From Octopus vulgaris (Eukaryota): a DNA stretch of 64,000 nt. Numbering within the stretch: position 1 is the first letter of the stretch; each line of letters starts with the position of its first letter. The notes under the pieces were generated by a model. The model did no database searches and was not told the origin of the DNA. It was given only the letters and a program-made list of their open reading frames with translations. The DNA lies in NCBI GenBank assembly GCA_951406725.2, contig OX597831.1, positions 17,980,001 through 18,044,000 of the forward strand, given 5' to 3'. Positions 13,118-39,538 of this stretch are shown piece after piece. The position numbers were made by a program, and so were the translations under genes.

Positions 13118-13202
13118 GAAGCACAGGCGATTCCTTATGAAGGCGAAATGGCCTGAAGTTTCGATAGAAGGAGGGAAACATTTCAGAAATTCTTCGTAAC
13201 CA
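13118..13202 (-). CDS. Cys-rich protein copy 2, exon B: GYEEFLKCFPPSIETSGHFAFIRNRLCF
   Basis: Acceptor atattttcag, donor TTC|gtaatt, 85 nt, phase 2 to 0. Aligns without gaps to copy 3 exon B (8/28 identical), and the flanking introns are homologous. Confidence 0.75.
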
Positions 13203-15170
13203 CTGAAAATATTATGCTGATCTTTAAATTTCATTTACAATATGTTCATTTAATATCTTACAATAATTAAATAATATAAACTAATAGAAATTACTAATTA
13301 CTAATTTCCATACGGTACCTGCGGCACTAATCAGACATGTTCGTTGATGATTGTTAGAATTCTCAAATACGGGTTCTACATCGTGCAAGTGTTTTCATTT
13401 GCGTAATGCGTACAAATAGCAGGGACTAAAACTTAATCGAAAAGTGTAATAGCTCCTATCAGCGTTTGCTATATAGGGAGAGAAAATGACGATTATATCT
13501 AATACATGCGTTATTTATATATAACGACAATCTGTTTTGCAATCATTTTCCACCCCGGTAAATGTAGCACGTATTATCGTTTGCAAACACGCATATATGG
13601 TATTATATTAAAACTTCTACTGTGTGCGTGTATTTGTATTGTGTGCGTGTGTGTGTATAATATTATTAAACGTTAGATATATATATAGAGAGGAAATTAT
13701 GCGGATGATTAAATTAGGTACATCGAGTATATCCGATATATTAATAAACCAATTAAAACATATGTATACAAGCAAAATAACAGGAATAAAGAGAGGGAAA
13801 CTTTCAGATGATAATCTTCATGTTATGTATAAATATATCGAAAATTTTATCAATAGTTCCAACCGACAGAGAGTACAGATTTCACAGCAAATTAAAGGTA
13901 TGGAAGAAAGGTGTGATCATCCAAACAGCTGTTTCTCGGGTGTCGGCAATCCCTGATAATGAGCCGGGTATTTCATGATAATATGCGGCCGTATAGGTGA
14001 GACGTATCTCCGTCATCAGGGTAGAGAAGATTATAATGAAGAGATGTTCAACGAATCATTCTTACTCTAGGAAAAAGGCCCGAAATTTTGGGGAAGCGAC
14101 CAGTCAATTACATCAAACCCAGAACGCAACTGGTACTCAATTTACCGCGCAAAGTTGACATCGGCGGAATTTGAAAACAGAACGCAAAGACGACGAAACA
14201 CTGTTAAGCATTTCGTCCGGCATCCTAACGTTTCTTATTTCATTTTTGTCCACAGGGGGTTAAACATACCGAGGACAAAAAAAGGATAGACAAAGTGATT
14301 ACGTCGATTACATCGAACCCAGTGCGTAAAAGGTACTTAATTTATCGACCACGCAAGGGGTAAAGGTAAAGTCGACCTCGTCGGAATTTGTACTCAGAAC
14401 GTAACGGTAGAAGACATACCTATTTCATTACTACCCACAGAGAGGCCAAACAAGGACAGACAAACGAATTATTTCGATTATATCGACCCAAGTGCGTAAC
14501 TGGTACTTAACTAATCAAACCCGAATGGATGAAAGGCAAAGTCGACCTTGACGGAATTTGAACTCAGAACGTAAAGGCAAACGAAATAAGACTAAGCATT
14601 TCGCCCGGCGTGCTAACGATTCTGCCAGCTCACCGCTTGCAGAGAAGTTCAAAGAATGAATTGTTCATTGTTAGCCCTATGCGAACTGCACAATTAATGA
14701 AGTAATCACAATAGTGATGATGAAATGTATCGCTTAACATTGGATGAGACGGACCGCCGTCATCGGCAATGATTTCAGATCTTAATGTAGAGAAGTTCGA
14801 ATAATAACTGTTCATTGTTAGCTTCATGTATAGTGCGCAATTGTCGTGGTAATCACAATAGTTGTGAGGAATTTTACCGACGTTGCTGTAGTTGTATATT
14901 AAGTTTTATATTCAAAGAGTTCTTACTCATTCTGTTAGCATTAATATTATTACTAGCAAAAGATGCATTATTGGTGTCACTCCGAATTTCATACACCGGA
15001 TCGACCTCTACAATAAACCATAGACCTAGACTGGCCTTTTTTACCTGTATGATGAACCATACAGTAGTAGTTCAAACATTATTGAATCACTTTCAAATTT
15101 TCGTTTACCTTACTCTATGTCCATTAAATATCTAAATGCATTTGATACCGTGAGATGCAGAAAGATATAT
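13203..15170. repeat. Paralogous exon A-B intron, duplicated at ~36882-38730
   Basis: Shared strings cgaaaagtgtaatagctccta and cattctgttagcattaatattatt(a/g)ctagcaaaagatgcattattggtgtcact, plus a SINE at the same position. Confidence 0.85.
14058..14640 (-). mobile_element. Trimeric tRNA-derived SINE
   Basis: Three tandem copies of the ggtact.aa...aaagt.gac...cggaatttg...cagaacg unit. Confidence 0.8.
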
Positions 15171-15249
15171 TTCATATCCAAACTATGTTCCCAACTTATC
15201 CTATGATATATACATTGCGTAAGTGAAGAGGTATTCTATTTGGTATACA

Positions 15250-16221
15250 TAAAAAGAGATAGAGATAGATCGACTGATAGCTATATGGATACTAGATATA
15301 TAGGTTGATAGATAGATAGATAGATAGATAAATAGATAGAAAGATAGGTAGATATGTAGTTAGGTAGGTAGGTAGGTAGGTAGGTAGGTACATATGTTGG
15401 TGGATAGGTACATGATTGATATGTAGATGGGTAGATAAATAGATTGATATATACATCGGTATGTAGATATATAAATAGAGAATTAGAAAAAATAGATATA
15501 TAAATAGAAAAATATAGATTGATAGATACTTAGGAAGATATGCCCATAGATAAATATATAGATGGATAGAAAGAGGGAGAATGCATAGATAGATATACAG
15601 ATAGCTAGCTAGGTAGATTGATATATTGGCAGGTAGGTAGGTAGTTGGATAGAAAGGTATGTATGTATATATGTGTGCATGTATGTATGTATATATGTAT
15701 GTATGTATGTAGGTATGTAGGAAGGTAGGTAGGTAGGTAGCGAGGGAGGGAGGTAAGTATGTAGGTAGGTAGGTAGGTGGATGGATATATAGCCAAATAT
15801 GTAGAGAAATTAACAAACAGATATGTAAATAGACATATTGATATATAGAGAAGTTCATACAAAAATATATCGATATTCGATTATGTGGATATGTAGATAC
15901 AGGGATAGACAAATAGAGGGATAGACGTTTAAATGGAGAATTATATACAGGAATAGATCGACAGATAGCTAGAAAAAGAGAAAGATTCGTAGATAAATAT
16001 ATAGATATGTAGATACATAAATAGATAGACAAATAGATACGTTGGTAGATAGGTAGGAATATATGTAGAAATAAATGTAGACTAATAGATAGAGTTAGTT
16101 AAATAGATACATAGATAGATAGATACATAAATATATAGATATAGATGGATAGATAGATAGACAGAAATATAGAGAGCGAGGTAGATAGATAGATAAAGTG
16201 ATATATAGAGAGATAGCTAGG
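15250..16221. repeat. Degenerate GATA/GGTA microsatellite tract
   Basis: Directly visible; similar tracts lie downstream of exon A in every copy (2314-2545, 38730-39370, 53736-53990). Confidence 0.9.
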
Positions 16222-16223
16222 TA

Positions 16224-17492
16224 TCAGATCACCCTATGATTTCTGTCCGATTTTACCTTTTTTTTAAAAATTGAATGACATTTAATAGTATTTTAGAATG
16301 TCTAATGGAATTAAAATTATTTTTATCTATTTGTGTACATTTACACTAATTAAATATTACTTTACAGAATAATGAAATTAAAATTTCTTTGATTAAAACT
16401 CTTTCTAACATGGAAGTATCCAAAGCGCATTTGTGGAATATAATGCTTTATGAGTAAAAAAAAGAGAAACTCTGCAGCCGAAGCGACGCGAAACATACAC
16501 TCAGTTTATGGGAAAGAATGCTTGAATGAAAGAACTTGCAGCAGGTGGTTTGCAAAATTCTGAAGTGGAGATTTCAGCTTTGAAGGTAAAAATCGAAAAG
16601 GACGTCCAGCGGAGTTTGCTGATAACCTCCTTGAGGAATTACTTGATGAAAATCCTGCATTATCAGTTGAAGAATTGGCAATAAGGTTTAGTTGAAGCTG
16701 TCATCGTCTTCAACAAATTGGAAAGATTCCAAAACTTGGAAAATGGGTACCTCATAAATTGTTCGAAAGCAACCGCAAATCTGCTCTTGCCTCCATTCTT
16801 GAGAACTCATTTCACCCTTTTTGGGTAGACTTGTGACTGGTGACGGGAAACGGATCTTCTATCTAATTGTTAAACGTCGTAAACAGTGGCTTGGTAAAAG
16901 GGGAAAAGTTCAACCGAAATCGAGAAGAGAGCTTCATGTGAAAAAGGTTCTTCTCTCTATCTGGGGGGATTGCAAAGGGGTAATTCACTTTGAATTGTTA
17001 CCACCTAATGCAACAATGAATGTTCAAGTCTACTGCCAGCAATTAGAGCGTTTGAACCAAACTTTGAAATAAAAAAACCCGCTGTTGTGAATAAAAAAGA
17101 AGTGATGTTTCCTCGGGTCAATGCGAGACACCACACTGCAAAGATTACTGCGAAGAGCTTGGTAGCGAAGAAATTCCTCATTCACCTAATTATCCCGATC
17201 TACTCCTTCAAACTACCATCAGTTTCGTAGTATACAGAATCATTTGAGGGACATAAATTTCGCAAGCCAGGAGGAGATCGAAACTGACATTTCTTCGCCT
17301 CGGTTTCAAAGTCCTTCGCTTTGATACCAAAAGAGATTTACATTGATGGGATTAAAAAAGCTTGTAAATAGATGGAAGGAAGGCATAGATAATCAAGGAA
17401 AGTACACTGATGATTAAATTCCAATTAAATATGACATATGAACACTTGTTTTCTTTATTCAAAATTCGAACAGAACTTATGGGATGACCTGA
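16224..17492 (+). mobile_element. Full-length degenerate mariner transposon in the copy 2 intron
   Basis: Imperfect TIRs tcagatcaccctatgatttctgtccga / tcgaacagaacttatgggatgacctga with TA flanks; WVPHKL, LVTGDGKRI, KVLLSIWGD and YSPDL-like motifs. Confidence 0.9.
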
Positions 17493-17599
17493 TAGATAGA
17501 GGGATTGATCGACAATAGTTATTGATTTTTTTATCAGTATATGTATGATTTTGTAAAAATATTGTACAATAACTATCATAGAAATAATATATTTCATGC

Positions 17600-17702
17600 C
17601 CACAGTCTTTTCTCTTGAATACATACTCGTAAAATTGAGAAGGGCATGTTTCTCTACCCATATGTTTGCACTCATCCCAAGTGATGTAGGCGGTTGCGGC
17701 AT
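17600..17702 (-). CDS. Cys-rich protein copy 2, exon A: AATAYITWDECKHMGRETCPSQFYEYVFKRKDC(G)
   Basis: Acceptor tttcattttgtag, 103 nt open frame. Donor is GG|gcatga (GC where paralogs have gtatga). 16/33 residues identical to copy 4. Confidence 0.75.
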
Positions 17703-19159
17703 CTACAAAATGAAAGTAAGTATATTTCTTTTTTATATCGTATACTACTACATCGAATTTTATTAGCAAGGCATTACGAAATACATGTTTGATCTTGTCA
17801 TTATTTGCTTTCAACAAATTTGAGGGAAAAGGAAGACACAGGATTTTGAACAATGATATAAATTCTCATAAATGAGTGGTAAGATATTGTCATGCCCGCT
17901 CACCGCTACGTTTATTTAATATTATTTAATAAACGAACTATAATATATATACATATGTATCATAATTAATGTTGACAACATTTTAAGATTACCATAAAGT
18001 AGAAAGTATTATTAAGTCCTTAACTAGATATCACAATGCAAATATTATTATAAGTGATAAAATCAAATTTTAGTTATTAAATTACGTAATATAAATTGTT
18101 CGCTATAGAAAATAACAAACGCCTGTATCTGACTTTAGGAGCGATATTTAAGAGGATATGATGAACGATATATGAATAAATATAATCAGTCACAAGAAGA
18201 AACTATTAAGATACGCTACGATACCTAAAGATAATTCAAGAATTTTATTATTTAAAATGGATAAAGACAATATAGTGCGGCGATTATACATACTGATCAC
18301 CTACTTACTTATGACTACCAAAAATCTTGAGTTATATATTATTTATTTAATAATCTATTGTACCTGTATAATTTTAATTCGTTCGCGATTCAACTCATAA
18401 CATTTTGTTGCAAAATAACTGGTGTCGGTCTTTTGTTAAAATTCATACCCGCAATTTGACGCTGATTATTGCATTTTTAAGGGATATACGTTTTTTTTTT
18501 ATTTCTAAATGTGAAGACAAAAGTATTTTAGCTGCAAATGATATGTAATTAAGCTACAAAAGTAGGAACGTAGACTCAGGTATCAAAATCTCTCTCTCTA
18601 TATATATATATATGTATATATATGACTAAAGCCACCTAACGAAACGATTGGTCAAAACGTTGATGACGTCACGCTACGCTGGACTGACCACCTGACAGGT
18701 ATTATAAAACCCGAACAATCCACAAAACTCACCAGAATAACCCAGCGAATAACCACCATGGGTCATCACAATTGCTCAAGGTAAAAATGAATTCCTCGCT
18801 CTTTCGGGAACATCAATCCTCTGTATTGACTGCTTTCCACCACTTTGATCTGTTTTTTGTATTGAATACGTATCGCCACCGCGGGCCACTGCATCGAAAA
18901 CTTTGAACATATAGCATGAATGAACTTACTTCGAAACTATATCTGAACTTTAAGATGTCTGACTCCGTTGAGTATTGTAAATGAATTTCTTGTGTTTGAC
19001 GGCATGAGCTGTCTTTTTTTATATATAACTTTTTTTGATAAGGTTCATTTCAGGAACTGAAACATGTTATAAAGTATATATAAAAATTAAAAATTGTATA
19101 ATATAGCAGCATTTTCGAACTTCATTTTTTACAAATATATATATATATATATATATATA

Positions 19160-19323
19160 CCGGAGTAACACATAAATGTGAAACAAGGTGGAAAAAAGAG
19201 TACAGAAATACCAGTGGTAGGGTAATATGCTTTATTTAAAGCAGCAGAAAATTCAACAAAACCTGTAACTCTGGGAAACTCAGTGTAACAGGTTTCGTTG
19301 AATTTTCTGCTTCTTTAAATAAA

Positions 19324-19330
<7 letters not shown>
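19160..19330. repeat. Palindromic insert in a TA tract
   Basis: tttatttaaagcagcagaaaattcaacaaaacctgt is inverted as acaggtttcgttgaattttctgcttctttaaataaa. Confidence 0.8.
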
Positions 19331-19380
<50 letters not shown>

Positions 19381-20254
19381 TGTCTGTCTATGTACATATT
19401 TATATATAGCGAGAGAGAGAGAGAGAGAGAGAGAGAAAATGCAAGAACAAGAGATTTTTCTCATCGAATCGCCTGCGTGTTGACGTGCACCTGCTTACAA
19501 GCTTGTAAATTTAATATGTGATACCCTTGGCCAGAAGGGTAGCTTACTGTGTACCCGTTGCTTGGATATACATCGCTGCAAGTGTTCCACTGGCAATGAA
19601 ATAATCATAGCCTGGATATATCGCACTACATTCCTTAACTTATCATATATGTGTGTATGTATGTATGTATATGTATTTTTCATCTGTGTGTATGTGAGTG
19701 TGTGTATGTGTTGATAATTTGAGAAAGTTATATCCTCATTAGAGATTGTATAATGTAATGTATTCCACTGGTTAATCCGTAAGATATAATGCAATATTCA
19801 TTGGTATTTTTTCAGGATTATAAATATCATCAATATTAGGGGAAGCAAGAGAAACGAAGCGGGAATGAATGGATTTGAATAATAATTTTTTTTACATATT
19901 AGAAAAGTATGACATTCAAAAAAATCCACAAGGTTACAAATAACTTAAAAGCTCGTAAAAAAAATTGAAATGCAAAAATACCTTCATATAAGTTTCAATC
20001 ATATCATCTAGTTGTTGGGAATTTCGATTCATTTACTTTAATGCTATGAAAAACAAATACATTTCAAATGCATGATGAGGAATTGTTTGGCGTTGATATA
20101 GAGCTCATAGAAGTTAGTTGATCAGTTTTTCTTTAGAGCTAAGTACAGACTGTTAATGGATAAAAAGTGTAATTCAAATGTTGACAGTGTATTTGTTTGA
20201 TAGGTTTCAAATATTAAAAATATTAAAATAAATAAAATAAATGCACACTTTTTA

Positions 20255-20508
20255 AAGCCTAGCGAGGCCCATGGACCCGGTTTCCCGGTTTCCCTGGTGT
20301 ATGTTTTCCCTAGTATGGACGGGACGCCAGTCCATCGCAGCGTTACTCGCGTTTGCCAGCTGACTGGACTGGAGCAACGTGAAATGAAGAACACAACGCG
20401 TCGCCCGGTCAACTCAAGAACACAACGCGTCGCCCGGTCCTGGAAAGGAAACCAGAATCTTACGATCATGGCTCTGACATCCTAACAACTAAGCCACGCG
20501 CCTCCACA
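20255..20508 (-). mobile_element. SINE (V-domain-like) with internal 24-bp duplication
   Basis: Reverse complement has tRNA-like head ggaggcgcgtggcttagttgttagg and ctgcgatggactggcgtccc core; aagaacacaacgcgtcgcccggtc occurs twice. Confidence 0.65.
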
Positions 20509-22619: not shown

Positions 22620-22650
<31 letters not shown>

Positions 22651-23044: not shown

Positions 23045-23100
23045 TAATAATAATGATAATAATGATAATAAAAATAATAACAATAATAATTATAATAATA

Positions 23101-23164
<64 letters not shown>

Positions 23165-23298: not shown

Positions 23299-26200
23299 GA
23301 GAACACCGGGGACGGAAGAGAACACCGGGGACGTTTAAGATGTTAGAAGGAAAATTCAGAGCTCCGAAATCTATCCACAAAAATCGAAATCAAGGACATC
23401 CTATGGAGCCAAAGTTTTACTAACAAAGAATTGGACTGTAACCGAGTAAGTAATACTAATTGAAATTTATTACTATTTTCGAAACGAAATGATGTATTTT
23501 GACTCGATATCATCTCCGCCTCTAGCGCAACACATGTAAACATGCGTGGAACATCACGATCATCTCCGACCCCAAACACCATGTACAAAGGAACTACGAA
23601 GAAATTAAATGCCACCGATACTATTCAACCCAAGAATAATAATCGAGCGGTACGTACATTAAACTTACAACAAAAAATGTACGAAAAACTACACGTGCGA
23701 AATAATGTGACAACAGAAATAAACGGACCGGTACCCTACGAAAATGACGACCGTCAAAATAATGGGCCGGACGTTGTACCTCATGTCCCGCAAATAAAAC
23801 CCAAAAGACGTAAATGGACACGTGAGGAATACATTTCTATCTTACACGCATACTTCACAGCAGTACTCTACCCAAAAAATGAAAATACAACAACACATAC
23901 ATATAAAATATGGCAGGAAAATAATAGAGATATAGACTTGGATACAGCAATGAACCTTAATAAATTACCTAACGTACGAAGATACATTCTCAACACAAAA
24001 AAATATCAGAAATAGAAATAGAACACCTGAAAGAAAACATACACCAGGAAAATGTAGATAGAAGCCACACAACAATGCCCAATAATATAAACACTGAAAC
24101 TGTAAAACACGAAGACAAACGCAACATTCCCAACAAACACGATGTAAACAACGAAGGGGAGCCTAATGATTATGATAATATAAAAAATAAAATAATCAAA
24201 GAACTGAAAACCACAGAGCTCAAAATGGACCACCGACCATACCTCCCAAGAATCAAAATAAACAAAATAACAACACCTATAAACAGCATAAACCTAGCCG
24301 TCACTGAACTGATTGCCACTGAATAAAAAAAAAGTGATATCACTGAGCTAAATAACCTAATATACGCAGCAGCCACTGCAGCCACAAAATAAGCTGGATA
24401 CTCACCCAAACCCGCCCAAACAGGTGTACCATCACCCAAACGAACCCTGTGGATAAATAACATCCAAAGCAAAATAAAAAAAATTAGAAAAGACCTGTCG
24501 ATTCTTAATGAAATCAGCAAAAAAAAAAAACGCTACTGAGCAACAAAAAGAGAACAAAAATACTCCGCAAATATAACATCACAGAGAAAGATTTGCCTGA
24601 AATAAAAGAAAAGCTGAAGCAAGATATCCTTGACAAAGCACAAAGGATCCGCCGGTACAAGAAACGCCAACGCTTCTTTGAAGAAAACAAAAAGTTCAAC
24701 TCCAACCCCAAAAAGTTCTACCAAGAACTGGGAAAAAATAAAATAGAAGTCACTGCAGCACCAACGGCAGAAGAATTGGAAGAATTCTGGGGAGAAATAT
24801 GGTCGGCGAACGAACAACCAAAAAAAAGGCATCTGAACAACTTTGGACCCCTATAACAACTGAAGAGGTCACCCAGGCACTGCAAAGACTAAGCAACTGG
24901 AAGGCACCTGGGCATGACAAGATCCCCAACTTCTGGTTGAAATATCTAACAGGAATGCACAAAAAGCTGGCTGAAAACTTTAACAACGTACTAGCAGAGA
25001 CAGAGACAATGCCTGAATGGCTCAGGAAGGGGAAAACCATCTTAATTCCTAAATCAAATGAAAGAGAAAAACCAGAAAACTACAGACCAATTACCTGCCT
25101 CACTACTATGTTCAAGGCATTTACTGCAGTGATATCACAAAGGCTGAACAAGCACCTGGACGAAGAAAAACTGTTCCCAGAAGAGCAGAATGGATGCCGC
25201 AAAAGCTCATATGGCTGTAAAGATCAAATAATAATTAATAAAGCCATAACTGAAGACAGCCACAGAAAGAAGAAAGGCCTCAGCATTGCCTGGATTGACT
25301 ACAAAAAGGCGTTTGATAGCATCCCCCACACATGGATCCTCGAAACACTAGCCATTAACAAATTAGCACCAAAAATCATAAAATTCATACGACACTCTAT
25401 GAATAAATGGCAAACAGTCCTACAACTCCAAACAAAAGAGGGACTCATGAAAACCAAAGACATCCCCATTAGAAGAGGAATATTCCAGGGAGACACGCTC
25501 TCTCCACTCCTTTTCTGCTTGGCACTGTCACTTCTATCTGATATGCTAAATAGAACTGGATGCGGATATAAATGTTACGGCAAAACGATCAGCCACCTTT
25601 TATATATGGATGACCTAAAACTATACGCTGCAAATGACAAACAGCTGGAAACACTATTAAAGACAGTTCATGGTTTTACCAAAGAAATAGATATGGAATT
25701 TGGATTAGAAAAATGCGCCAAAGTAACCATGAAAAGAGGAAAACTAGTTAAGAGTAACAACATCACACTAGATAAAACCAATGAAATAGAAGTATTAGAC
25801 CAAAGCCAAACTAACAAATACTTAGGAATCCATGAACTAGATAAGACACAACACACACAAATGAAATAGAAAATAAAAAAAGAATATTATAGACGAGTTA
25901 GATCAATACCAAACACAGAGCTCAATGCTAAAAGCAAGATAATAGGTATCAACACTTTAGCTGTCCCAGTTATAAGTTACAGCTACAATATCCTTAACTG
26001 GACACGAAATGAACTGACCAAAATAGATAGGAAAACAAGAAAAATAATGACAGGATCTAGGATGCATCACCCAAAATCTGACGTAGAAAGACTATATATA
26101 CAACGTATAGAAGGTGGTAGAGGCCTTATACAGCTGGAAAACTACTATAAAATAACCACCATAGGACTGCAAAAATATCTACTTCAGAAGGAAGGAAAAC

Positions 26201-27262
26201 TGATCCAGAGAGCTGCAAAACACGAGCAAAACAAAAAACTGTTCTCAGTAATTAAGGAAGCTGACAAATACAAACAAGAAATCATACTACCTAATAAACA
26301 TGAAGAAGAAGAAGATGATGAAAAAACAACAAAAGCCATAAAACAAATGAAATCCAAACTAAAAATAGAACATCAACGAACCATGATAAATCGATGGCAA
26401 GAAAAGCCCCTTCATGGTAAATACTGGACTAAACTAAACGCAAAAGAAATAGATAAAGAAAAAACCCCGGCATTGGTTGAGAAGCTCAGGACTCAAAGCA
26501 GAGACAGAGGGATTTTTAATTGCAGCACAAGACCAAAGCCTCCCCACCAGAAATTACCAAAAACATGTAATGAAAAGAAATATTACAAGTAACTGCAGAA
26601 TATGTGGAGATGGACAAGAAACAATAAATCATATTATCTCTAGCTGCCCAGTCTTGGCTAAGAAGGAATATATTCACAGACATGACAGAGTTGGAACCTA
26701 CATACATTGGAAGCTATGCCAACATTATGGAATAACAACAGAAAAATGATGGTATAGGCACACACCAGAAAAGGTCACAGAAAACGAGAAAGCAACCATA
26801 CTCTGGGATATGCCGATACACACAGATAGAGAAATTAAGGCCAACAGACCAGATATAGTTGTCAGAGATCATGAAGAAAAAAATGCTTTCTAATTGATGT
26901 ATCAATACCGGCAGATGACAACGTGTCTCTAAAAGAAATGGAGAAGCTCTCAAAATACAAAGACCTGGAAATAGAGGTAACTAGAATGTGGAATCTGAAA
27001 ACAGAAACAATTCCTATCATAGTAGGTGCATTAGGCATGATAAAAAAATATTCAGACAAATACATAACAAAAACACCAGGACTTACAAACACATATGACA
27101 TACAGAAAATTGCACTACTAGGCACTGCACACATCCTACGCAGAACACTTTCCATACAATAACCATCATAGCATCACAACAAATCACAGCACATACCCAA
27201 GACACACAGAGCTGCGCTCGGTAGTGAAGTGAAAGCACGCTATAAAAATAAAACTACTGAAC
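23297..27262 (+). mobile_element. Near full-length R4/Dong-clade LINE (RT plus restriction-like endonuclease), disrupted
   Basis: RKWTREEY N-terminus; RT motifs WIDYKKAFDS, GIFQGDTLSP, YMDD; CRIC...H...C zinc finger, RHD, RPDI and KLSKY; flanked by (TAA)n. Confidence 0.95.
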
Positions 27263-27303
27263 AATAATAATAATAATAATAATAATGATAATAATAATAA
27301 TAA

Positions 27304-30075
27304 CCCAAAAAATGTTTACAGGAAGATAGGAAAAATACCAGTTACTTTAAAATCTGTACCATCAACAGAAGAAGTGCAGTGATTTGGGAATAAAATTTGG
27401 GCAGAAGAAAAAACACACAGCGAAAAGGCCCCCTGGATTGATAGAATATATAAAGAACTGTACTCCTTAGAAGAGCAAAAGTGGGAGGGTGTCAAGTTAG
27501 AAGATATATGATCTGCTCTCAGGCGGTCAAGCAAATGGATGTCTCCAGGAAAGGACAACATTCCTAACTTCTGTCTGAATGCCTTCCCAGAGAGACATGA
27601 ACTGCTAACAGAACTTTACAATGATGTTTTGCAGCACCCTAGTAGGATGCCTCCTTGGCTACTTAATGGGTTAACAATTCCTGCTTCCAAAAAGTGAAGA
27701 AACAAATGAACCAAAACACTATAGTCCCATAACCTGCTTAACAACTATGTATAAAACGCTAACATCTGTCCTGACGGAATATACTTATAGTTTTTTAACA
27801 GACAGAAGCATATTCCCTAATGAACAGAAAGGATGTAAACGTGGATCCTACGGTTGTAAAGGTCAGCTACCCATCAATAAGATGATCTTAGATAATTGTT
27901 ACAAACGACACAAAAACTTATCAATAGCCTGGATAGACTATAAAAAGGCTTTTGACAGCCTACCACATTGCTGGATTAAGAAATGCCTGGAAATGTATAA
28001 GATAGCACCTACTCTGCGAAACCTTTTGACTGTAAGTATGAGATCATGGAGAATCACATTAACTTTGAACAGTGACAATGAATCTCTAAATGCTGGTGAT
28101 GTAAATATGTCATGTGGCATTTTCAAGGGTGACTCACTATCACCACTCCTCTTCTGTTTAGCCTTAATACGTCTCAATGACGCGGGTCCGGGTATAAAAT
28201 GTTTGATAAAAATATAAATCATTTCATTCACATGGATGATTTAAAGCTTTTTTGCAAAAAATGACCAACAACTCAAGGGCTTACTAGCGATAGTCAAACA
28301 ATTCAGTGACGACATCAGAATGCAATTTGGCCTCGATAAATGTGCAAAAGCTACCTTTATCAAAGGGAAAATGACAGAAACATCTAACGTTAACTTTGAC
28401 CAGCAGAATGTCATAAAATAATTAAACCCAGCGGAAAGCTACAAGTACCTAGGAGTAATTGAAGGGGACGGAATAAGGCATTCAGTGACGAACGAAAGGA
28501 TCAGGAGAGAATGTTATCGCAGAGTAAGAGCAATACATGAACACCACCCTGTACTTAACTCCATGTCCCCCTACATGGCCTTGCTATTTGCTTTTGAGCC
28601 AAATTAACTAACTAACTAACATACTCAAGACAGAGCTAAATGCGAGAAACATGATCGAAGCGATCAATGCTTCAGCCATACCAGTCGTGACTTACAGTTT
28701 CAATATCGTTAATTGGTCAATTACTGAAACATGTCAGCTCGACAGAAAAATAAGGAAACTGTTGACAATGCATAGAATGCACCACCCTAAGGCAGATACA
28801 GAACGACTTTATCTGCCAAGAAAAGAGGGAGGCCGTGGACTTTTACAACTGGCAATAACAATGAAGATTGCTACAATTGGCCTAGACACCTACCTGAAAA
28901 ACTCTGAGCAGTGCATGTTAAAATCTTGTCTCAAAACATGAAGACAAAAAAGCATCATACGCATTAGCAAAACAAGCAAAGAGAAATCTAAGTGAATTCT
29001 GAATACAGCAAATTTCGGAATTAGAGATAGACATACAAGAAACAAGTCCAGAAAAAGCTACGCGCTAAAACTGCGGCCTTAGATATTCTGAATGATAAAT
29101 GGCAAGAAAACCCTCTGTATGGCAAATACCCAATGAGAGCGAATAATGCAGATATTGACTAAACCCTTGACCCACCAATGGCTAATGGCCTCTGGCTTAA
29201 AATCTGAAACCATGGGGTTTATCATAGCAGCTGAAGATCAATGCCTGCCAACAAGAAACTACCAGACCAACATATTAATGAACGGCAGTAGACCAACATG
29301 TCGTGTATGTCAAAAACAAAATGAAACCATTAATCATATTGTCTCCAAGTGCAGTCATCTTGCGCCTACAGAATATCTCAACAGACACGATAGAGCTGCA
29401 CAGTTTTTTCACTCGGTAATTTGCAAAAACCTTGATTTGCCCCTTGAAAAAAAAATGGTGGGAACACAAATCACCTACAGTGCTTGAAAAATGACCACAT
29501 CTCAATCTTCCGGAACCTCACCATTCAAACTGACAGAAAGATAGATGCAAATAGGCCAGATATCATATTGAAAGACTTCAGACAAAAAACATGCCTCCTC
29601 ATTGATATGATTGTCCCAATCGATATAAACGTATCTGTCAAGACCTAACAAAACCGAGCAAATATAAATATCTTGAAATAGAAATCAGCAAAATGTGGAA
29701 TCTGAAGTTTAAAACAATACCTGTTGTTATAGGTGCCCTGGGAATGATAGCGAAAGGGGCTGATTGCTAACTAATTCAGATACCAGGAAATCCCAAAATG
29801 GCAGAAATTCATAAGATAGTGCTCATGGGAACTGCTCATATCCTACGGAAAGTACTTTCAGTGTAAACTCAAGGTTTAAAATGTAAAACTTTCATTTTAT
29901 TTTTTATTTTATTTTATATATTATTTTTTTTTATTAGACATTCACTAGTACAACACCAAAAAAATATATGGCACACTAGGCATAACAATAACTGTGAACT
30001 TCCAGCCTGTTGATTCTTGGGGTGTCTGGGTGAGACTTGGAGCCAACTTGTACAATTATAAAGCAAAATTCAAAC

Positions 30076-30077
<2 letters not shown>
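27304..30077 (+). mobile_element. Second, 5'-truncated and more degenerate R4/Dong-clade LINE
   Basis: WIDYKKAFDS, HMDD, CRVC...H...C-RHD and RPDI motifs; sequence distinct from the first copy; bounded by TAA tracts. Confidence 0.93.
28537..28620 (+). mobile_element. 84-bp 3' tail of the CR1 family nested in the Dong element
   Basis: Matches the 3' end of 6929-7017 and 59611-59705, with (CTAA)n tail and atac target duplication. Confidence 0.9.
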
Positions 30078-30124
<47 letters not shown>

Positions 30125-30169
30125 TAATAATAATAAGTAATAATAATAATGATAATAATAATAATAATA

Positions 30170-30264
<95 letters not shown>

Positions 30265-30274
30265 TAAAAATAAA

Positions 30275-30339
<65 letters not shown>

Positions 30340-30393
30340 GAAGAAGAAGAAGATGAAGAAGAAGAAAGACAACAACAACAATAACAATAATAA
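30078..30393 (+). repeat. (TAA)n/(GAA)n/(CAA)n microsatellite
   Basis: Directly visible. Confidence 0.98.
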
Positions 30394-31199: not shown

Positions 31200-33350
31200 A
31201 CTAAATCATGAGTAATATAAATGGTTAGTCTATCCAAGGCCTAGCATCGCTCCTGTCATTGTTTCGTTTTCTATCATTCGTGTCGATCACCATGGACTGT
31301 ATGGCACCTAGCATTATTATTATGATGCTTACGGCATACGAAAACACAGACCTCTCATCGTTCTTCTCTTGGAATGCTTGTCGATATCTCTGGCTGCTGC
31401 AGTGGTAGCTCTTCATTCATTACCAACCAAACAGATGTTAGCATTCATATTTAGTAGAGAGACCGCATGATACTGAGAGTTTCGGTCAGGTGGCCATTAA
31501 ATCTGACCAATTAGCGAATATGACGGCACAATCAACCAATTAAACCGAGGTTTTTAGAATTCTGAACCAACTCTACTACCACAATTGATTCATTAGTTTA
31601 CAGAATCTTTCTGGATATTCACATTACTCTTTGCCCATAGTTATAGTGGCGCATTTGGGAAATTATGTCGGTACATGACAGCTAATTGGTAAACATATGA
31701 GTGATTTTTCAAGGGAATTTATAACCTCTTGAAGCTGGTTTAAAATGATGGAGAAGTTGAGCCAGTAAGCAGTAAGGTTTCCTAATCGACTGGTAAAAAT
31801 AAAGTAGCGCGAGATACTCAGGAAGGATACCAATCACCTGGGGAATTCCAGCTGTCTCACCTCAGGTGGACTTACATGGTATGTAAACTTCAGGCATCGA
31901 CATTCGCTCGTATTGACATTTAGTTTTATTAAATTTAATTCCACGTCTAGAAAGACCATCAGTGTTTTATGAGAGTCCGAAACGACATCGCACTTCGAAC
32001 GTGATTATGCATCCATATATGTATATAGAGACTTTAAAATAAACACATATATGTGTCCGTGTGTGTGTGTATGCGTGTATGAATAAGTGTTTGTGTGTGT
32101 TTGTGCCTGTGTGTGTCTGAAATCCTAGTGTCTCTGTTAGCAATCAGTTCCAAATGTAGCGACCAGAAGCCACTGAGCAACCCTCATTGGATTCAAGCTC
32201 GCACAAGGCCATTATTTGATAAATGCATTATAGTTGCTGAAAGATAAAGAGGAGAAAAGTAAACCAGATGCCAAAACGGAGTGTCGGAGAGAGTTTCATT
32301 CGGCATCCATTGAATTACGGTACACATTGAGGACAGCATTTATGAGCTTACAGTTTATGCTCAGACCAATTACACAATTGGATGTACGGTATTCCAGTCT
32401 CATTTATTTGAAAACTTCAAAACCTAGAAAGGGCTGACCTCAAGAAACCTTCCAATAAATTTGTCCCCCCTTTTTCCTCTAAGGATATCAGAATATATTT
32501 TTGTCCCCTTTAACAGCAAGCAATTTCGTGATAGTGTGTTTTTATTTATTGAAGCTATTTTATTTTGATAGTAGTCTGCTGTGTTTGTTTTCTTTTGGCT
32601 GAGGTTAGTGTAGTCGGAAGTGGAGGAGTTGCGAATTTTCCTGTTTTTCATATTGTACGGTGTGCTGTAGTTGAGGCTGTCATAATTGTGTTGCTCCAAA
32701 AAACTGTTAAAAGTTTTGCCCTGTTATTTTTGTTTTGTTTTGACAAGTGTGTGTGTCGTGCATGCTGCTGCTGTTTGCTCGGTAGTTGGGGTTGGAATTG
32801 GCCTTTGCCTTGCTGCTCTTTTCTCAGCTTCCTCTACTTGCTACTTTCCATTTCTACTTTGCATCACTTTCCGTTGAGATCTTTTCGGGATACGGCCTAT
32901 TTCCTCCAACATTTTGATGAGAATACAAACTGTTCCAAGTTTACTAAAAGATACGTTTCTACACTCATTTACATTATTTACATTCGACGGATATTTGTCC
33001 TCATCTTGTTTGTTGTTATCACAACGTTTCGGCTGATGTACCCTCCAGCCTGTTGTAAACCGTAGCTATTTGAGTAATTGAGAAAATCTCCACGTTCTGG
33101 TGACATGTCTTACATCTACCCATATGTCTTCTAGAGCTAGATCCAGCTAGGCCTCAGTTGCTGCTAGGGGTGCGGTTTTTACCGACATGCCCAAAATAGC
33201 CATCGTCTTCCTAGTTATAACAAAAATCTAGGATTGCGTGGCAACTTGCATTGTCCTCACCGTTGCATAAATAAATTTCTCCTACCACTAATATTGCCGT
33301 TATTTAAACCTTTGTGGCCACTGTAGTTTTCCCTGATGACAATGTTTGTG
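31200..33350 (-). mobile_element. Old L1/Tx1-like LINE remnant, paralog of 5275-6928
   Basis: Shared caggcatcgacattcgc, gtagcgaccaga and ctccacgttctggtgacatgt; endonuclease-like remnants continue leftward. Confidence 0.55.
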
Positions 33351-34039
33351 TACGTGCCCATTTATGTGTGTCCGTGTACGTAGGTGTGTGTGTATGATAC
33401 TGTGTATATATGTATGTGTAGATGCGTGAGTGTGTGTGTACAACAGAATTATTTGATTACATCATCTTAAAATTGTCCTACATTATTAAGTTGAAGTATT
33501 CAGTTTGCAGGTGGTGGAATTATAAACCTATTCCTGTATGATACGTTGTGTTAAAAATCTAACGGGGAATATTTGAGTTCTTTAACAAAAGTCATGAAAA
33601 TGATACTCAGATATTAATGTGTATTATACTTCCGGTATAATTGACAAATACTTATGAAACATATTTCGTGAGATTCCGATATCACAACAGAAAATGTGTG
33701 ACGAAGTTTTACACATTAAATATAAAAAATAATTCAGCTTAGATTTTCAAACTTATCTTTACCTAAACTCATTTGGATACCTTTATTTCAATATGTATAA
33801 AGTGTTGTTTCAGCAACTAGTAAATGCTATGGCAAAGAATAATTAATACATTCTGTCTTTGAAATGAAACTCAAACGTTAATATGTGTTAATCCGTACAT
33901 TTTGCTAAATATTCAGATATCAAACAATTTTAATGCAAATATGAAAGTATAATTTATTGAAGACATATTTCAGATATTTAGAATATCAAAAGAAATACAA
34001 CACTAAAACAGGGAATCTTCATTACGGTATTTATTTTAT

Positions 34040-34102
34040 TTAGTAGTTCTTAAGTAAAATCACCAGAAGTGCAGTACGGATTTTCGATATCGGGGATACC
34101 AT
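34040..34102 (-). CDS. Candidate terminal exon of copy 3 (phase 0: MVSPISKIRTALLVILLKNY*)
   Basis: Strong acceptor (long pyrimidine tract ending cattttacag) with AATAAA at and just after the stop. Reading frame and linkage to exon B are unproven, and no clear homolog is seen in copy 2. Confidence 0.35.
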   Translation of the reverse strand: MVSPISKIRTALLVILLKNY

Positions 34103-35206
34103 CTGTAAAATGAATAGGGAAAAGGTTATGTAGAAATGGGGGGAAAGTATTGTGGTAAGTGTTATGCAAATATTTCCTTAAAATATATTTACATTTATGA
34201 AATGCTTCGGAGCTTGCCTAACAAAACTATGCATTATTTGCCGAAGAAACAAGTGGGTAAATGAGAGAATGATGTAGCATCTGGCCAGTTAAAAGAGTTT
34301 TAGCTTGATAGAAGGCAGAGAATGCCGTACCGTAAATCAGTGCGAATTGGGTCCAATCTGTACATCCCTGATGATACCTACGTGTTATATATTGAAACAC
34401 ATCTACCGCTGGGCTACCCACTGTAAGCTTTTAATCATTGTTATAAATATTGAATCACATGAAATTACGTACCTTAGCGTGGTTTCTGGGATTTTTCTTC
34501 GTTCTGAAAGAAAATACGAATAGGACGAATGTGAAATTATTACCAATAACATTTTATTTACCTAGAGCAGATTTGTTTGGGGTTATCATAATCTCATTTG
34601 CGTTAGAAGAAATTAATAGGCTTAATGTAACGCACTTCCTGAATTAGATTTGTTTCATCCAATGGTGTGAGAATACATAAAAACTAAAAATAAATTTAGG
34701 GTTTATACATAAACGACATTGTTAGGCTTTTTGTAAACTCTACATCATGAAATTCTGCAAGATACAACAATAAGAAACATCTTTCAGAATTTTCTTTAAG
34801 ATATCAGAACTGAATATATTTTTGCGATATTAAGTTTATTCAAATCTGAAGCTGTAACATCTGAGCGAAGAAATTTGCTTTGCTGTGCTTTTGTATCTTC
34901 TATTTTGTTTCAGTCTTTAGACTCAGTCTATGACATGTCACCACATCAAGAAACGTTAGTCGAATTTATTTTGCATTTTATGCTTGGAATTTAATCAAAC
35001 ATTGCATCTTGCTGTACACCAAGTTTACGGGCCCTGAAACAAGGACACATGTCAACCGGTAATGGGGACAAAAACACATTCACACATATGTGTGTATACA
35101 TATTTATATACACACACTCGCACACACACACACACATATGTATATATGAACATATTCACAAACACACACACTATCACAAACACACACACACACACACACG
35201 TATATA

Positions 35207-36600
35207 TCGTGTTGTAAAATAATGCAATCTTCTAATTAGGGTTAAAAATACGCATACATTTAGACATGCTAGATGTAAATAGACACCTTTAATTTTCAAA
35301 ATTTCGGACCTAAGCGTCTTAATATATTTTCAACGGTGTACAATTTACAATGTGACAATTCGGTTTTCGTTCCAGGCGCCATTATATTAATCATTAGCGA
35401 AGAATTACCATGTTACGCACAAACATTCAGCAGAACTGTCAGGTTTTCAAGGAGTTCGTATTGTTCGTCATTTTGAGACTGGTCTTAGCCATTAAAAAAT
35501 TGCCGAAAATCTTCAAAATGCTCTTTCGAATGTTAATAGTGTTATAGTGCAAATCAAAAGCCAAAGAGAAGAATCAACTTATTTTCGTCCCGGTCAAATC
35601 TAGGCACTCGGAATGGATGATTCAGTGTTTGAAGACAATTGTGGCAAATGAACCCCTTTCGAAGGCTTCTGACAGTACGAAAGAGCCTAGAAGTTACTCC
35701 GAGAGCGTGTGTTACATATCTGCATAAGCTTAAGTATTATGGACGAATATCTAGAAGAAAACCTCCCCTTCAAACAATTAATATCAAGAAAGAAATGAAA
35801 TGGGCTAAGGATATGTCAGAGAAATCCAGTTAATTTTGGGTTAGACTGATTTTCTCAGATGATTCCAGATTTGAATTACTTTCAGACAGTGGACGTGTTT
35901 GGGTCTGGATGTTTTCCAATCAAGAATTCGATTTTAAACGACTCCAACTAACTGTGAAACATGACGGTAGCTCTGTAATGGTATGTGGAGCTATCACCAG
36001 CAATGGTCGTTCTGAGATGGTCGGATGTGTTGGAACTATTAACACTGAAAAACACATCGAAATATTAAGCAACGACTACTTCCGATTTATTCAAACGATT
36101 GCACAAAGGAAAATGAATTTTTATTAATGAAAGATTCGGCTCCACGAAGCAGAGCGGAAAGGAATCATCAATGGGTGACTGAAAATAGGTTCGGAAAGCT
36201 TCCTTGGCCGAGCCAATCTCCTGACATGAACCCAATTGAAAATCTCTGGAGCATACTAGATGGAGCTATACGAAAACACAAAGGAATCCTAAATCTAAAG
36301 ATGAATTGTTTCGATTGCTGCGTGAAAAGTGGATAGAAATTCCACACGAGACAAGCCCAAAGATCATCAGTTCAATGGCCAAAAGAGTTTCTGAATTAAA
36401 AACTGCAAAAAGTATGTCAACTAAATACTAAAGTATGTCGTCCTATCTATCGACTACATTGCAATTGTTCGCTTTGCGTACAAAAGTAAAGATTCTGAAA
36501 ATTAAGGATGTCGATTTGCTTCCTGCATATATACGTTTAAATATTTGTTGTGCAAGATTTTATTGGCTAAACTGGCAAAATGACCATTCCGAAATATAAC
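35207..36600 (+). mobile_element. Degenerate Tc1 transposon
   Basis: SRRKPPL, IFSDDSRF, TVKHDGSSVMVCG and WPSQSPDMNPIENLW motifs. Confidence 0.9.
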
Positions 36601-36793
36601 AATATATATATATATATATATGTATATATATGTATATATGAATTTATGTATACATATACATTTTTGTTGGAGAGAGTTCTCTACAGTGCCATGTATAAGG
36701 TGAGCTGATAGACGAATGTTTCATTTTGTTTAAGACCAGTTTCAAATTTATGCATAATCGAAGAAATATTTGGAGGAAGAATAAGATGCTTAC

Positions 36794-36881
36794 CTGGTAG
36801 CAACCGCTATGCTTCTTGAAAGCGTCATGGCATTGCCAGCTGATATCTCTAGTTAAACATGCCAACAAGTCTTTGAAACCA
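36794..36881 (-). CDS. Cys-rich protein copy 3, exon B: GFKDLLACLTRDISWQCHDAFKKHSGCYQ
   Basis: Acceptor aattttcag, donor CAG|gtaagc, 88 nt. Its phase-2 start fits exon A; homologous to 13118-13202. Confidence 0.85.
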
Positions 36882-37376
36882 CTGAAAATTTAAAGCGAAG
36901 CTTTCAAATTTCATTTACGATATGATCACTTAAGACGATTCAATAATTTATCTATAAAATCTAATGAGAACGTAAGCATTCACATCAACACTAATCTCCA
37001 TACGTCTCAAGCGGAACTAATGTTACATAGTCGTAGCTATGATCAAACATCTGAAATATGTGAATATCCTATATCGCACAAGTGAATTAATTTACCTACT
37101 GTGTACAAACAGTAAAGATAAATGCTAAAGCGAAAAGTGTAATAGCTCCTAAAAGAGTTTGATATATAAGGCAAGTAAATGTCAATTATATCTAATACGT
37201 GTGTTATTAATTTATAACGACCATCAGTTTCGGAATCATTTCCTACACATTATTACTTGCAGACAAGCATATATGGTTTATATTATATTATATTATAAAA
37301 TGTTATCATATGTCTGTGTGTGTGTGTAAATGTGCATGTGTGTGCGCACCTATACGTGTGTTATATCATTATGTGT

Positions 37377-37410
<34 letters not shown>

Positions 37411-37413
<3 letters not shown>

Positions 37414-37693
37414 GAAATAAAGAAGAAGCTGACAAAATAATTTAAGTAATTTAAGTAATTTAATTAGGTGAAGTTCTTTTTACCGGTTGCGCATTTGTTA
37501 TGCTTATCAAAAGTTTTATTTTTTAAGAGAGATACAGTTCCCTTCTGATAAATTTTTTTCCTCTTTCCTCAGAAAGGAAATCTATCTCTCTTGATAAGCA
37601 TAATAAATGCGCAACCGGTAAAAAGAACTTTCACCTAATTAAATTACTTAAATTACTTAGATTATTTCGTCAGCATTTTCTTTATTTCCTTTG
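37411..37693. repeat. Long inverted-repeat insert in a TA tract (Penelope-like-derived?)
   Basis: Arms of about 100 bp (aaaggaaataaagaa...gcttatcaa versus ttgataagc...ttctttatttccttt); absent at the homologous site of copy 2. Confidence 0.85.
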
Positions 37694-37730
37694 TTTATAT
37701 ATCACAACTCGTGTTCCACTTCTCATTTTT

Positions 37731-37801
<71 letters not shown>

Positions 37802-38149
37802 ACAGGAAATTAAGCGAATAATGAAATTAGGAACATCAAGTATATGCTATTCATTAAATACATCAACTAAAATATATGTATATATCTATATATACAACCA
37901 GAGAAAAAGCAAGAGTTGAAACTTTGAGATGATGAAAATGTTACCTGTAAATATAGAGATATTTTATTAAGTATTCCAAAGTACAGAGACTAGAAATAAC
38001 AGCGGAAATTTAAGGAATTTAAGAAAGATGTAACAAGCCAAACCTCTGGTTCTTGGTTGTTGGGAATGCACATTAAGGAGACATGTAATTCCTCTAAATA
38101 TGGTGCCGTATGAATGCAATTAACATTGCATTGAGTAGAAAAGAAACTT

Positions 38150-38358
38150 TTCTACTCAAGGCGGAAGACCTGAAAATTTTGGGAAGGGGCCATTCGATTA
38201 GCTCGACCCCAGTTCAAAACTGCCACTTATCCTAACGGGCCCGAATAGATGAAAGGCAAAGTCTACCTTGGGGAAACTAGAATTCAGAACGTAGCGACGG
38301 GCGAAATACTACTAAGACATTCGCCGACGTGCTCACTATTCTGCCAGCTTGCCTCCTG
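38150..38358 (-). mobile_element. tRNA-derived SINE, positional homolog of 14058-14640
   Basis: Same core (gatgaaaggcaaagtc...cagaacgta) between the same intron landmarks. Confidence 0.75.
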
Positions 38359-39172
38359 CGTAGAATTTCAAACAATGAATGATTGCTGTTATCTCAGGGC
38401 TTAGCGCGCGATTTTCAAGCTAATCACAGTATTTGTGAGGAGGTTTATCGACGTTGTTGTATTTGGATATTTTGATATTCAAAGCGATCTTATTCATTCT
38501 GTTAGCATTAATATTATTGCTAGCAAAAGATGCATTATTGGTGTCACTACGCATTTCATACAGCAGATCGACCTATACAATATACCATAGACTGGCCTTT
38601 TTTTTACCCGTATGATGAAACATACATAAGTAGTTCAAACATTATTGAATCACCTTAAAATTCCCATTTCGCATATTCTCTGTCCTTTAAATATCTAAAT
38701 GCATTTGATACAGAGAAATGCAGAAAGATAAGTATGTAAGTATGCATGTAAATGTGTACGTATATATGTAGGTATGTAGGTAGTTAGGTTGGTAGGTAGT
38801 TAGAAAAGCAGGTAGTTAGGTAGGTCAGTAGGTAATTAAATAATTTATGTATATATAAATATACAGATAGATATATATACATATATAAATATACAAACAG
38901 TTTGCAAGATTAGACAGACAAATAGGCAGATTGATAGATAAGTCTATCTATAAGTCTATAGATAGACTTATAAGATTATAAGTATATTGATATATAGGTT
39001 GATAGAAATATTGATCGAGAGGCGGCAAAGTAGAAAGATAGATAGATACAGACAGAGATTGAAAGATCGATGGACGTTTAATGGGTGTAGGTAGTTACAG
39101 TAATAGATATAAAGACAGAGACAGATAGGTTGATAAATATATAAATATGTTGATAGATTGATAGTGATGTAC

Positions 39173-39216
<44 letters not shown>

Positions 39217-39432
39217 ATATATGTGTATACACACACACGCATAAATTTATATATATATATATATATAGAAAGGGAGAGAGAGAGATTGATGAATAAATAG
39301 ATAAATAGATAAATAGTTGGATAGGGTATAGATATGTAGTGTAATAGAGAGATTGTTTAGATAGATTTACCGTTATATTTATCATTTTGTAATAAGTTTG
39401 TGTATGTATCTTAGAAATAATAAATATCATAC

Positions 39433-39538
39433 GCGCAACCTCTTGAGTGGGAGCCTACGGTATATCTTAATTGCTCAGGACATGCATATCTCGCAAAACG
39501 ATTGCATATTCCCCAAAAACTACATTCGGATGCTGCGT
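39433..39538 (-). CDS. Cys-rich protein copy 3, exon A: (H)AASECSFWGICNRFARYACPEQLRYTVGSHSRGC(A)
   Basis: Acceptor ttttcactttctag, donor GC|gtatga, 106 nt, phase 1 to phase 2, open frame. Same W-x2-C-x7-C...C pattern and splice flanks as three other copies. Confidence 0.85.

What the first reader, a model, noticed from the sequence alone, without database searches (positions are those of the whole stretch)
13118..39538. Exons appear to diverge faster than neighbouring intron blocks
Exon B of copies 2 and 3 shares 8/28 residues and exon A of copies 2 and 4 shares 16/33, with Cys, Trp and splice sites kept. Some intron stretches between copies 2 and 3 are nearly identical by eye. Hypervariable inter-cysteine loops in conserved introns are established for conotoxin and snake-toxin families; positive selection here is an inference.
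Basis: partly seen in the sequence, partly recalled or inferred. Interest (0 to 1): 0.75.

Follow-up and report, generated by a model that had tools for sequence, protein, structure and literature searches.

The report
Megabase array of hypervariable octopus proteins
These are four copies of an unnamed octopus gene family with about 40 open copies in a row over at least 1.4 million bases; the exons of its six-cysteine domain change faster than the introns around them, and the proteins are predicted to be lipid-anchored at the cell surface, where they likely recognise a fast-changing partner rather than act as toxins.

Summary
For copies 2 and 3 the exons differ at 45% of bases against 24% in 2,286 aligned non-coding columns (p=3e-9). 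A simulation of alignment bias and a shared repeat do not explain this. Corrections: those introns are about 76% identical, not near-identical; copy 2 has lost a cysteine, has a GC donor and lacks signal and tail exons; the excess lies mainly on the branch of copy 3, the one copy with all exons. The copies belong to an array of at least 1.43 Mb with 48 exon-A hits, 40 with open domain exons. The genes encode signal peptide, predicted three-helix six-cysteine domain, spacer and a short hydrophobic end, so likely GPI-anchored proteins, not toxins. Site models over 36 paralogs support positive selection (p=0.003 in the strictest test); the copy 2/3 pair alone does not (dN/dS 1.0-1.3). In a five-gene clade, exons differ by 24-41% (one young pair 4%), introns by 2-17%, lowest near the anchor exon, which suggests gene conversion as well. 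No family, fold or paper matched. Earlier scan notes do not cover this array. Function and expression are untested.

The parts
46136..46172 (-). Copy 3 signal-peptide coding exon (12 codons + 1 nt, GT donor)
   Evidence: matches the start of O. bimaculoides P0002/P0005
39433..39538 (-). Copy 3 exon A (Cys1-3; phase 1 to 2), canonical splice sites; fastest branch
36794..36881 (-). Copy 3 exon B (Cys4-6; phase 2 to 0)
34473..34503 (-). Copy 3 candidate spacer exon, 31 nt; read in phase 0 it reaches a stop just before the last intron, so the product would lack the anchor if this exon is included
   Evidence: splicing not shown
34040..34102 (-). Copy 3 last coding exon, 20-residue hydrophobic end (predicted GPI signal), 13 of 20 identical to P0002
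33432..33793 (-). Non-coding block 3' of copy 3, homologous to 12011-12399 (80% identical)
17600..17702 (-). Copy 2 exon A, open frame, GC donor; no signal exon found upstream
13118..13202 (-). Copy 2 exon B, fifth Cys replaced by Gly; spacer and tail exons not found downstream (likely pseudogene)
12011..12399 (-). Copy 2 3' non-coding block
54041..54143 (-). Copy 4 exon A, 21 of 33 identical to O. bimaculoides P0002; its signal exon lies about 5 kb beyond the window's right end; exon B and tail not found, an assembly gap follows
53330..53429 (.). Assembly gap (100 N), the only one in 1.46 Mb
2700..2798 (-). Copy 1 exon A, stop after the second Cys; exon B not found (likely pseudogene; 3' end of the exon approximate)
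14473..14640 (.). Dispersed repeat at the same intron position in copies 2 and 3 (38193-38360); neutral marker, 24.6% diverged
14873..14995 (.). Best-conserved intron stretch of copies 2/3 (8 mismatches in 100 columns)

Best explanation
The window holds four members (copy 3 with all exons, copies 1 and 2 likely dead, copy 4 cut by an assembly gap) of a tandem array of about 40 octopus genes that are predicted to encode small GPI-anchored three-helix, six-cysteine surface proteins, whose domain exons were likely driven apart by positive selection for binding a fast-changing outside partner, most likely microbial. Shown: array, exon layout, exon-over-intron divergence, a site class with dN/dS above 1. 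Inferred: GPI anchoring (hydrophobic end with no cytoplasmic tail), three disulfides, gene conversion or unequal exchange homogenising the signal and anchor ends while selection keeps the domain exons distinct, and a binding face on helix 1. The partner is a guess: host defence about 40%, gamete recognition 20%, neuronal or self-recognition code 20%, shed or secreted effector 10%, other 10%.
For: Array: 48 exon A, 44 exon B, 60 signal and 49 tail hits in 1.46 Mb, 0 in the reversed control; 40 of 48 with open A+B, 33 of these with signal and tail in order; 36 of 40 with six Cys. Ends: 58 of 60 signal hits hydrophobic; 41 of 49 tail hits have a phase-0 acceptor, median 19 residues, 34 of 41 with a strongly hydrophobic core. 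O. bimaculoides P0002/P0005: signal 13 of 16, domain 23 of 59, tail 19 of 20. Copies 2/3: nonsynonymous rate 2.6-2.9 times the intron rate, CI 2-4; true intron distance about 0.3 by simulation; shared repeat 0.246. Branch rates against introns: copy 3 4.0-4.6 (LRT 22-27), copy 2 0-0.8, copy 4 1.7-2.2. Site tests: 14 genes M1a/M2a LRT 20-28, M8a/M8 11-17; 36 genes, 37 indel-safe codons, double hits allowed, LRT 11.8, p=0.003; five-gene clade dN/dS 1.82 (p=0.034), 31% of sites at 5.3 (p=1e-4), 0 of 60 null replicates reach that LRT. 14 of 17 close pairs have exon > intron at p<0.05. Gradient in that clade, leaving aside the youngest pair: B-tail intron 3-6%, signal-A intron 6-11%, A-B intron 7-17%, exons 24-41%, with a sharp drop right after exon B. 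Model: three helices, pLDDT about 90; top sites at Cys1-1, +2, +6 fit one helix face (inference).
Against: With dS free, copies 2/3 give dN/dS 1.0-1.3, p>0.5, and differences fall evenly on the three codon positions (26, 27, 28 of 61). On 14 genes the test lost significance with indel-safe columns plus double hits (p=0.11) and for exon B alone (p=0.21). A four-gene clade was not significant (p=0.16). 1 of 14 pairwise tests passed. 3 of 17 pairs show no exon excess, 10 of the 17 come from one clade, and one significant pair includes a frameshifted exon end. Recombination can inflate site tests and was not modelled. No GPI predictor was available. Copy 3's spacer exon would remove its anchor if included. 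Nothing here bears directly on tissue or partner.
Confidence: 0.6

Rival explanations
1. Relaxed constraint plus gene conversion: outside the cysteines and core the domain evolves nearly neutrally, and introns look conserved only because recent exchange homogenised them.
For: M0 dN/dS 0.76-0.81 over 14 genes and a large class at 1; exon dS about twice the intron distance; clear patchwork of intron divergence in the five-gene clade.
Against: A class above 1 improves the fit in most tests. Copies 2/3 show fairly even non-coding divergence (18-32% in 8 blocks, repeat 25%), so no homogenised island there. A peak of divergence at an exon amid conversion is itself read as selection (PMC3924837, passages). 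The excess is on the intact copy, not the dead one.
Confidence: 0.2
2. Venom or other secreted toxin family evolving as conotoxins do.
For: Conserved signal, fixed cysteine frame, hypervariable mature part, tandem duplication; copy 3 may be soluble.
Against: 41 of 49 tail hits encode a short terminal exon, mostly hydrophobic, and it is the best-conserved part between P0002 and P0005; no propeptide in P0002 or P0005; helical fold; no Pfam or PDB match to any toxin.
Confidence: 0.08
3. Gamete-recognition or neuronal identity proteins (Bouncer/lysin-like role, or neuritin/GFRalpha-like role) rather than defence; same anatomy, different partner.
For: Whole-protein Atlas likeness to neuritin, 0.84; weak GFRAL and GFRalpha3 structural rows, Z 3.1-3.3, rmsd 3.6, 60-63 aligned; tandem, positively selected fertilisation paralogs are known in abalone (PMC9022041, passages).
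Against: The Atlas hit vanishes with the domain alone; Z values are within noise; about 40 diverging paralogs with frequent gene death is more typical of defence families (general knowledge).
Confidence: 0.3
4. Raised local mutation rate in the exons (hypermutation, or composition effects), with no selection for change.
For: Even spread over codon positions and dS above intron K for copies 2/3; exons 44% GC against 33-36% in introns.
Against: Close pairs show almost only replacements: 10 of 11 changes in one pair, 3 of 3 in another; 0 of 12 four-fold sites differ where 21-26% of first and second positions do. CpG is not enriched in the exons.
Confidence: 0.07

Closest known systems
O. bimaculoides LOC128249941 / LOC128249942 and O. 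vulgaris CAI9735849.1 (uncharacterised records)
   Same: Same family; CAI9735849.1 is an automatic model that fuses exons of three array members letter for letter; LOC128249942 is closest to copy 4 (21 of 33)
   Different: No name, function or note of an array; only three clusters were found in the protein collections
Conotoxin superfamilies (PMC3862624, passages read)
   Same: Conserved introns and signal, hypervariable cysteine-framed mature region
   Different: Conotoxins are secreted pre-pro-peptides; these are predicted helical, with a hydrophobic C-terminal anchor exon and no propeptide
Mussel MgCRP-I (PMC4558851, abstract and outline read)
   Same: Lineage-restricted mollusc six-Cys family, duplication and positive selection, function unknown
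   Different: Short secreted pre-pro-peptides with another cysteine frame; no anchor
Neuritin/CPG15 (PF15056) and GFRalpha-type domains
   Same: Signal + helical disulfide domain + GPI end (architecture recalled); Atlas 0.84 for the whole protein
   Different: No Pfam match, no Atlas hit for the domain alone, structural Z at most 3.3; neuritin is a conserved low-copy gene (recalled)
Abalone lysin/sp18 (PMC9022041, passages read)
   Same: Mollusc tandem paralogs under recurrent positive selection
   Different: Four ancestral soluble acrosomal paralogs; no sequence or fold match found
Red/green opsin divergence peak under gene conversion (PMC3924837, passages read)
   Same: Exon divergence peak with homogenised flanking introns, as in the five-gene clade
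   Different: Two genes and a few sites there; a whole two-exon domain across many paralogs here

Membership tests
Conotoxin-like secreted toxin | Signal peptide and fixed cysteine frame with hypervariable mature region | tested here: met
Conotoxin-like secreted toxin | Soluble pre-pro-peptide with no membrane anchor | tested here: not met
   41 of 49 tail hits give a short terminal exon, 34 of 41 strongly hydrophobic; copy 3 may be an exception
Conotoxin-like secreted toxin | Venom-gland expression and toxicity | not testable with these tools
   no usable RNA data
Neuritin (PF15056) | Match to the NRN1 profile | tested here: not met
   no hit at E<=10 for P0001, P0002, P0004 or at E<=5 for 24 alignment members
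Neuritin (PF15056) | Signal + six-Cys domain + GPI-type end | tested here: inconclusive
   layout fits; Atlas 0.84 whole protein, none for the domain alone
GFRalpha/Gas1 domain | All-helical disulfide-rich fold superimposing on GFRalpha D2/D3 | tested here: inconclusive
   6q2j_D Z 3.3, rmsd 3.6, 63 aligned; 6q2s_D Z 3.1, rmsd 3.6, 60 aligned; tied with unrelated rows
GPI-anchored protein | N-terminal signal and C-terminal hydrophobic stretch without cytoplasmic tail | tested here: met
   58 of 60 signal hits; 40 of 41 tails at most 25 residues
GPI-anchored protein | Omega site used; release by PI-PLC | not testable with these tools
   no predictor or experiment available
Positively selected multigene family | Site class with dN/dS above 1 | tested here: met
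   not significant in 3 sub-tests; recombination not modelled

The most novel reading that the evidence does not exclude
Octopuses carry a hidden, megabase-scale repertoire of about 40 or more tiny GPI-anchored three-helix binders, a variable-receptor system in which conversion keeps signal and anchor constant while selection diversifies a two-exon binding cassette, with some members (copy 3) switching to a soluble form. It would be an undescribed recognition system, immune or cell-identity, on a scaffold with no solved relative.
Probability: 0.3. Interest if true: 0.85.

Novelty: new variant of a known kind. Interest (0 to 1): 0.62.

Why it matters
Exons outrunning introns in cysteine-framed families is known. 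What appears new is the carrier: a family of about 40 open genes over at least 1.43 Mb that automatic annotation nearly missed (one fused model found for this species), with a surface-anchor layout and no known fold. Cephalopods have few described variable recognition molecules, and the proteins are about 60 residues, so expression maps, PI-PLC release and ligand screens are directly feasible. The five-gene clade is also a clean case for separating selection from gene conversion.

Tried and rejected
No RNA holder was listed for copy 3 and the one RNA-like run laid on exon B gave no contig; neither is evidence on expression. The DNA run of organism B differed at 2 of 88 exon bases (one codon, Arg to Glu) and 7 of 543 intron bases, 4 of them shared with the run of organism A; organism C laid nothing: too little to test orthologues. 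Pfam, PDB sequences, Foldseek and VIA-align (best Z 4.0) found nothing clear; this does not show a new fold. A PF15056 search of the genome found none of 8 candidates. Protein searches of the genome found no convincing copy off this contig (insensitive). Of 22 pairs, those with shared transposons (g1-c3, g1-c4, c4-r4, c3-c4, probably the long-range pairs) or a chimeric gene (r1-r16) were dropped, and pairs with intron p near 0.3 were dropped because the method saturates there. The block at 12011-12399/33432-33793, first read as a coding exon, lies 3' of the tail exon. The 56%-site omega of 55 in clade 3 is not meaningful as a number: it was a 23% class at the upper range of a saturated fit. 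No exon donor closer to copy 3 than copy 2 was seen among 14 genes. Paper searches found no account of the family: octopus + neuritin, 0 papers; four accessions, 0; searches listed nothing on it (listings only). PMC9068888 (passages) mentions unnamed squid arrays in its Supplementary Table 4, which was not held and may bear on novelty. PMC7656900 (passages) does not mention such a family.
Full report
What is there. The window is AT-rich animal DNA on contig C18 of a 2.8-Gb genome. A protein record labelled Octopus vulgaris matches exons of this locus letter for letter. On the minus strand lie four copies of a small gene. With the help of two O. bimaculoides records the layout is: signal exon, exon A (three Cys), exon B (three Cys), short spacer exon, last exon with about 19 hydrophobic residues and a stop. 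Copy 3 has all of these. Copy 2 has no signal or tail exon, a GC donor and Gly for the fifth Cys. Copy 1 has a stop in exon A. Copy 4 has signal and exon A and then meets an assembly gap.

The observation. The two identity counts are exact. For copies 2 and 3, 82 of 183 codon-aligned exon bases differ against 546 of 2,286 non-coding columns (Fisher p=3e-9). These introns are about 76% identical, not near-identical; one 100-column stretch has 8 mismatches. Controls: simulated introns put through the same local alignment give the observed p of 0.24 and about half coverage at a true distance near 0.3, and under 10% coverage at 0.6; a repeat shared at the same intron position differs by 0.246. So the exons really diverged about 2.5 times faster. 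For copies 2 and 4 the excess is not significant. On a three-way tree with synonymous rate tied to 621 intron columns, exon A runs at 4.0-4.6 times neutral on the branch of copy 3, 1.7-2.2 on copy 4 and 0-0.8 on copy 2: the fast branch is the complete gene.

Limit of that pair. When dS is free, copies 2/3 give dN/dS 1.0-1.3 and dS about twice the intron distance; differences are even across codon positions. With about 40 synonymous sites the pair cannot separate selection from an older exon genealogy or a higher exon rate.

The array. Iterated nucleotide HMMs over 1.464 Mb found 48 exon A, 44 exon B, 60 signal and 49 tail hits from about 668 kb left to 763 kb right of the window start, still open on the right, with 0 hits in the reversed control. 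40 of the 48 have open A and B exons, 33 of those with signal and tail in order; 36 of the 40 keep six Cys. 58 of 60 signal hits have a hydrophobic core; 41 of 49 tail hits have a phase-0 acceptor, 34 of these 41 a strongly hydrophobic core, 40 of 41 at most 25 residues. Between the two O. bimaculoides proteins, signal is 13 of 16, domain 23 of 59 and tail 19 of 20 identical. A signal plus a short terminal hydrophobic stretch is the usual mark of GPI anchoring (general knowledge; no predictor was run).

Selection across the family. My own MG94xHKY site models gave, on 14 genes, M1a/M2a LRT 20-24 and M8a/M8 11-17 (11 genes in the reduced set), and 28 with free branch lengths. On those 14 the test fell to p=0.11 with indel-safe columns plus double hits, and to p=0.21 for exon B alone. 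On 36 genes and 37 indel-safe codons with double hits and an extra constrained class it held at p=0.003, about 26% of sites at 1.7. A young five-gene clade gave overall dN/dS 1.82 (p=0.034) and 31% of sites at 5.3 (p=1e-4); a four-gene clade was not significant. 0 of 60 null simulations reached the five-gene LRT and 1 passed the 5% line (scaled rather than free branch lengths). With repeats masked, 14 of 17 close pairs had exon above intron divergence at p<0.05; the pairs are not independent, 10 being from one clade. Recombination was not modelled and can inflate such tests.

Gene conversion. In the five-gene clade, apart from the youngest pair, the intron before the tail differs by 3-6%, the intron after the signal by 6-11%, the A-B intron by 7-17% and the exons by 24-41%, with exon dS of 0.18-0.36 by counting. 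Mismatch falls from 28-39% in exon B to 0-4% within 100 bases after it. This is the divergence peak expected when exchange homogenises paralogs and selection protects a region (PMC3924837, passages). This step is inferred; tree conflict was not tested formally.

Structure. AlphaFold2 on P0002 with exon rows gives three helices (22-42, 48-56, 63-72), pLDDT about 90. The best-supported fast sites include Cys1-1, +2 and +6, a spacing that fits one face of helix 1, while hydrophobic positions beside the cysteines are constrained. No fold, Pfam or PDB sequence match stood out. The Atlas placed the whole protein near unnamed mollusc clusters (0.93, 0.92) and neuritin (0.84), but the domain alone gave no usable hit, so neuritin and GFRalpha are leads only.

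How it most likely works. A constant signal and anchor display a small disulfide-locked helical domain on the cell surface; duplication supplies copies, selection changes the exposed face, exchange keeps the ends alike, and many copies die. That pattern fits binding to a partner that keeps changing. I put host defence first (about 40%), on analogy alone; gamete recognition and a neuronal or self code follow; a venom role is least likely because of the anchor. Copy 3's 31-nt spacer exon would end the frame just before the last intron, so this fastest copy may be soluble, or may skip the exon (untested).

Comparison and novelty. The evolutionary pattern is that of conotoxins (PMC3862624, passages), mussel MgCRP-I (PMC4558851, abstract) and abalone lysin (PMC9022041, passages). 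The family itself appears undescribed in the searches made; a supplementary table of PMC9068888 on unnamed squid arrays could not be seen. Earlier scan notes hold nothing near this place or for this sequence but describe other fast-evolving octopus surface families (unchecked). Verdict: real, partly as described, larger than described; new variant of a known kind; interest 0.62.

Noticed in passing
window 6931-10800 (-), 23300-30000 (+), 39650-42700 (+), 49316-50008, 57900-60440: Decayed retroelement-like insertions between and within the copies (types recalled, not tested); the one at 23.3-30 kb sits where copy 2's signal exon would be expected.
   Followed up: no
window 16380-17490 and 35300-36480: Decayed mariner/Tc1-like transposon remains in introns of copies 2 and 3 (recalled from the reading).
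   Followed up: no
window 18700-18790: TATA-like word and a strong splice-donor-like site inside copy 2's upstream intron, with no homologue in the 264 kb searched; unexplained.
   Followed up: partly
window 19714-20138 and 55659-56088: Conserved intron block that matches the alternative first exon of O. bimaculoides isoform X1 (P0004), so some 'intron' blocks may be exonic.
   Followed up: partly
G000:C18 about 18,117,600 and 18,125,000; 17,404,000-17,493,000: Orphan signal exons: two identical copies of copy 4's signal exon and a run of seven signal exons with no domain exon found after them.
   Followed up: no
G000:C18 about 17,638,400, 17,716,400 and 17,813,500: Three tail exons with identical translation, two of them orphans.
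   Followed up: no
G000:C18:18,076,000-18,095,000 against 18,136,000-18,170,000: Recent segmental duplicate (about 98% identical); the left copy joins one gene's signal exon to another's domain exons; its 3 exon differences are all replacements.
   Followed up: partly
G000:C18 about 18,247,600 and 18,275,900: Two paralogs that lost or shifted cysteines together and whose exons are less diverged than their introns: a possibly constrained sub-type.
   Followed up: no
window 63057-63282: 21-nt tandem repeat, 10.8 copies at 98%.
   Followed up: no
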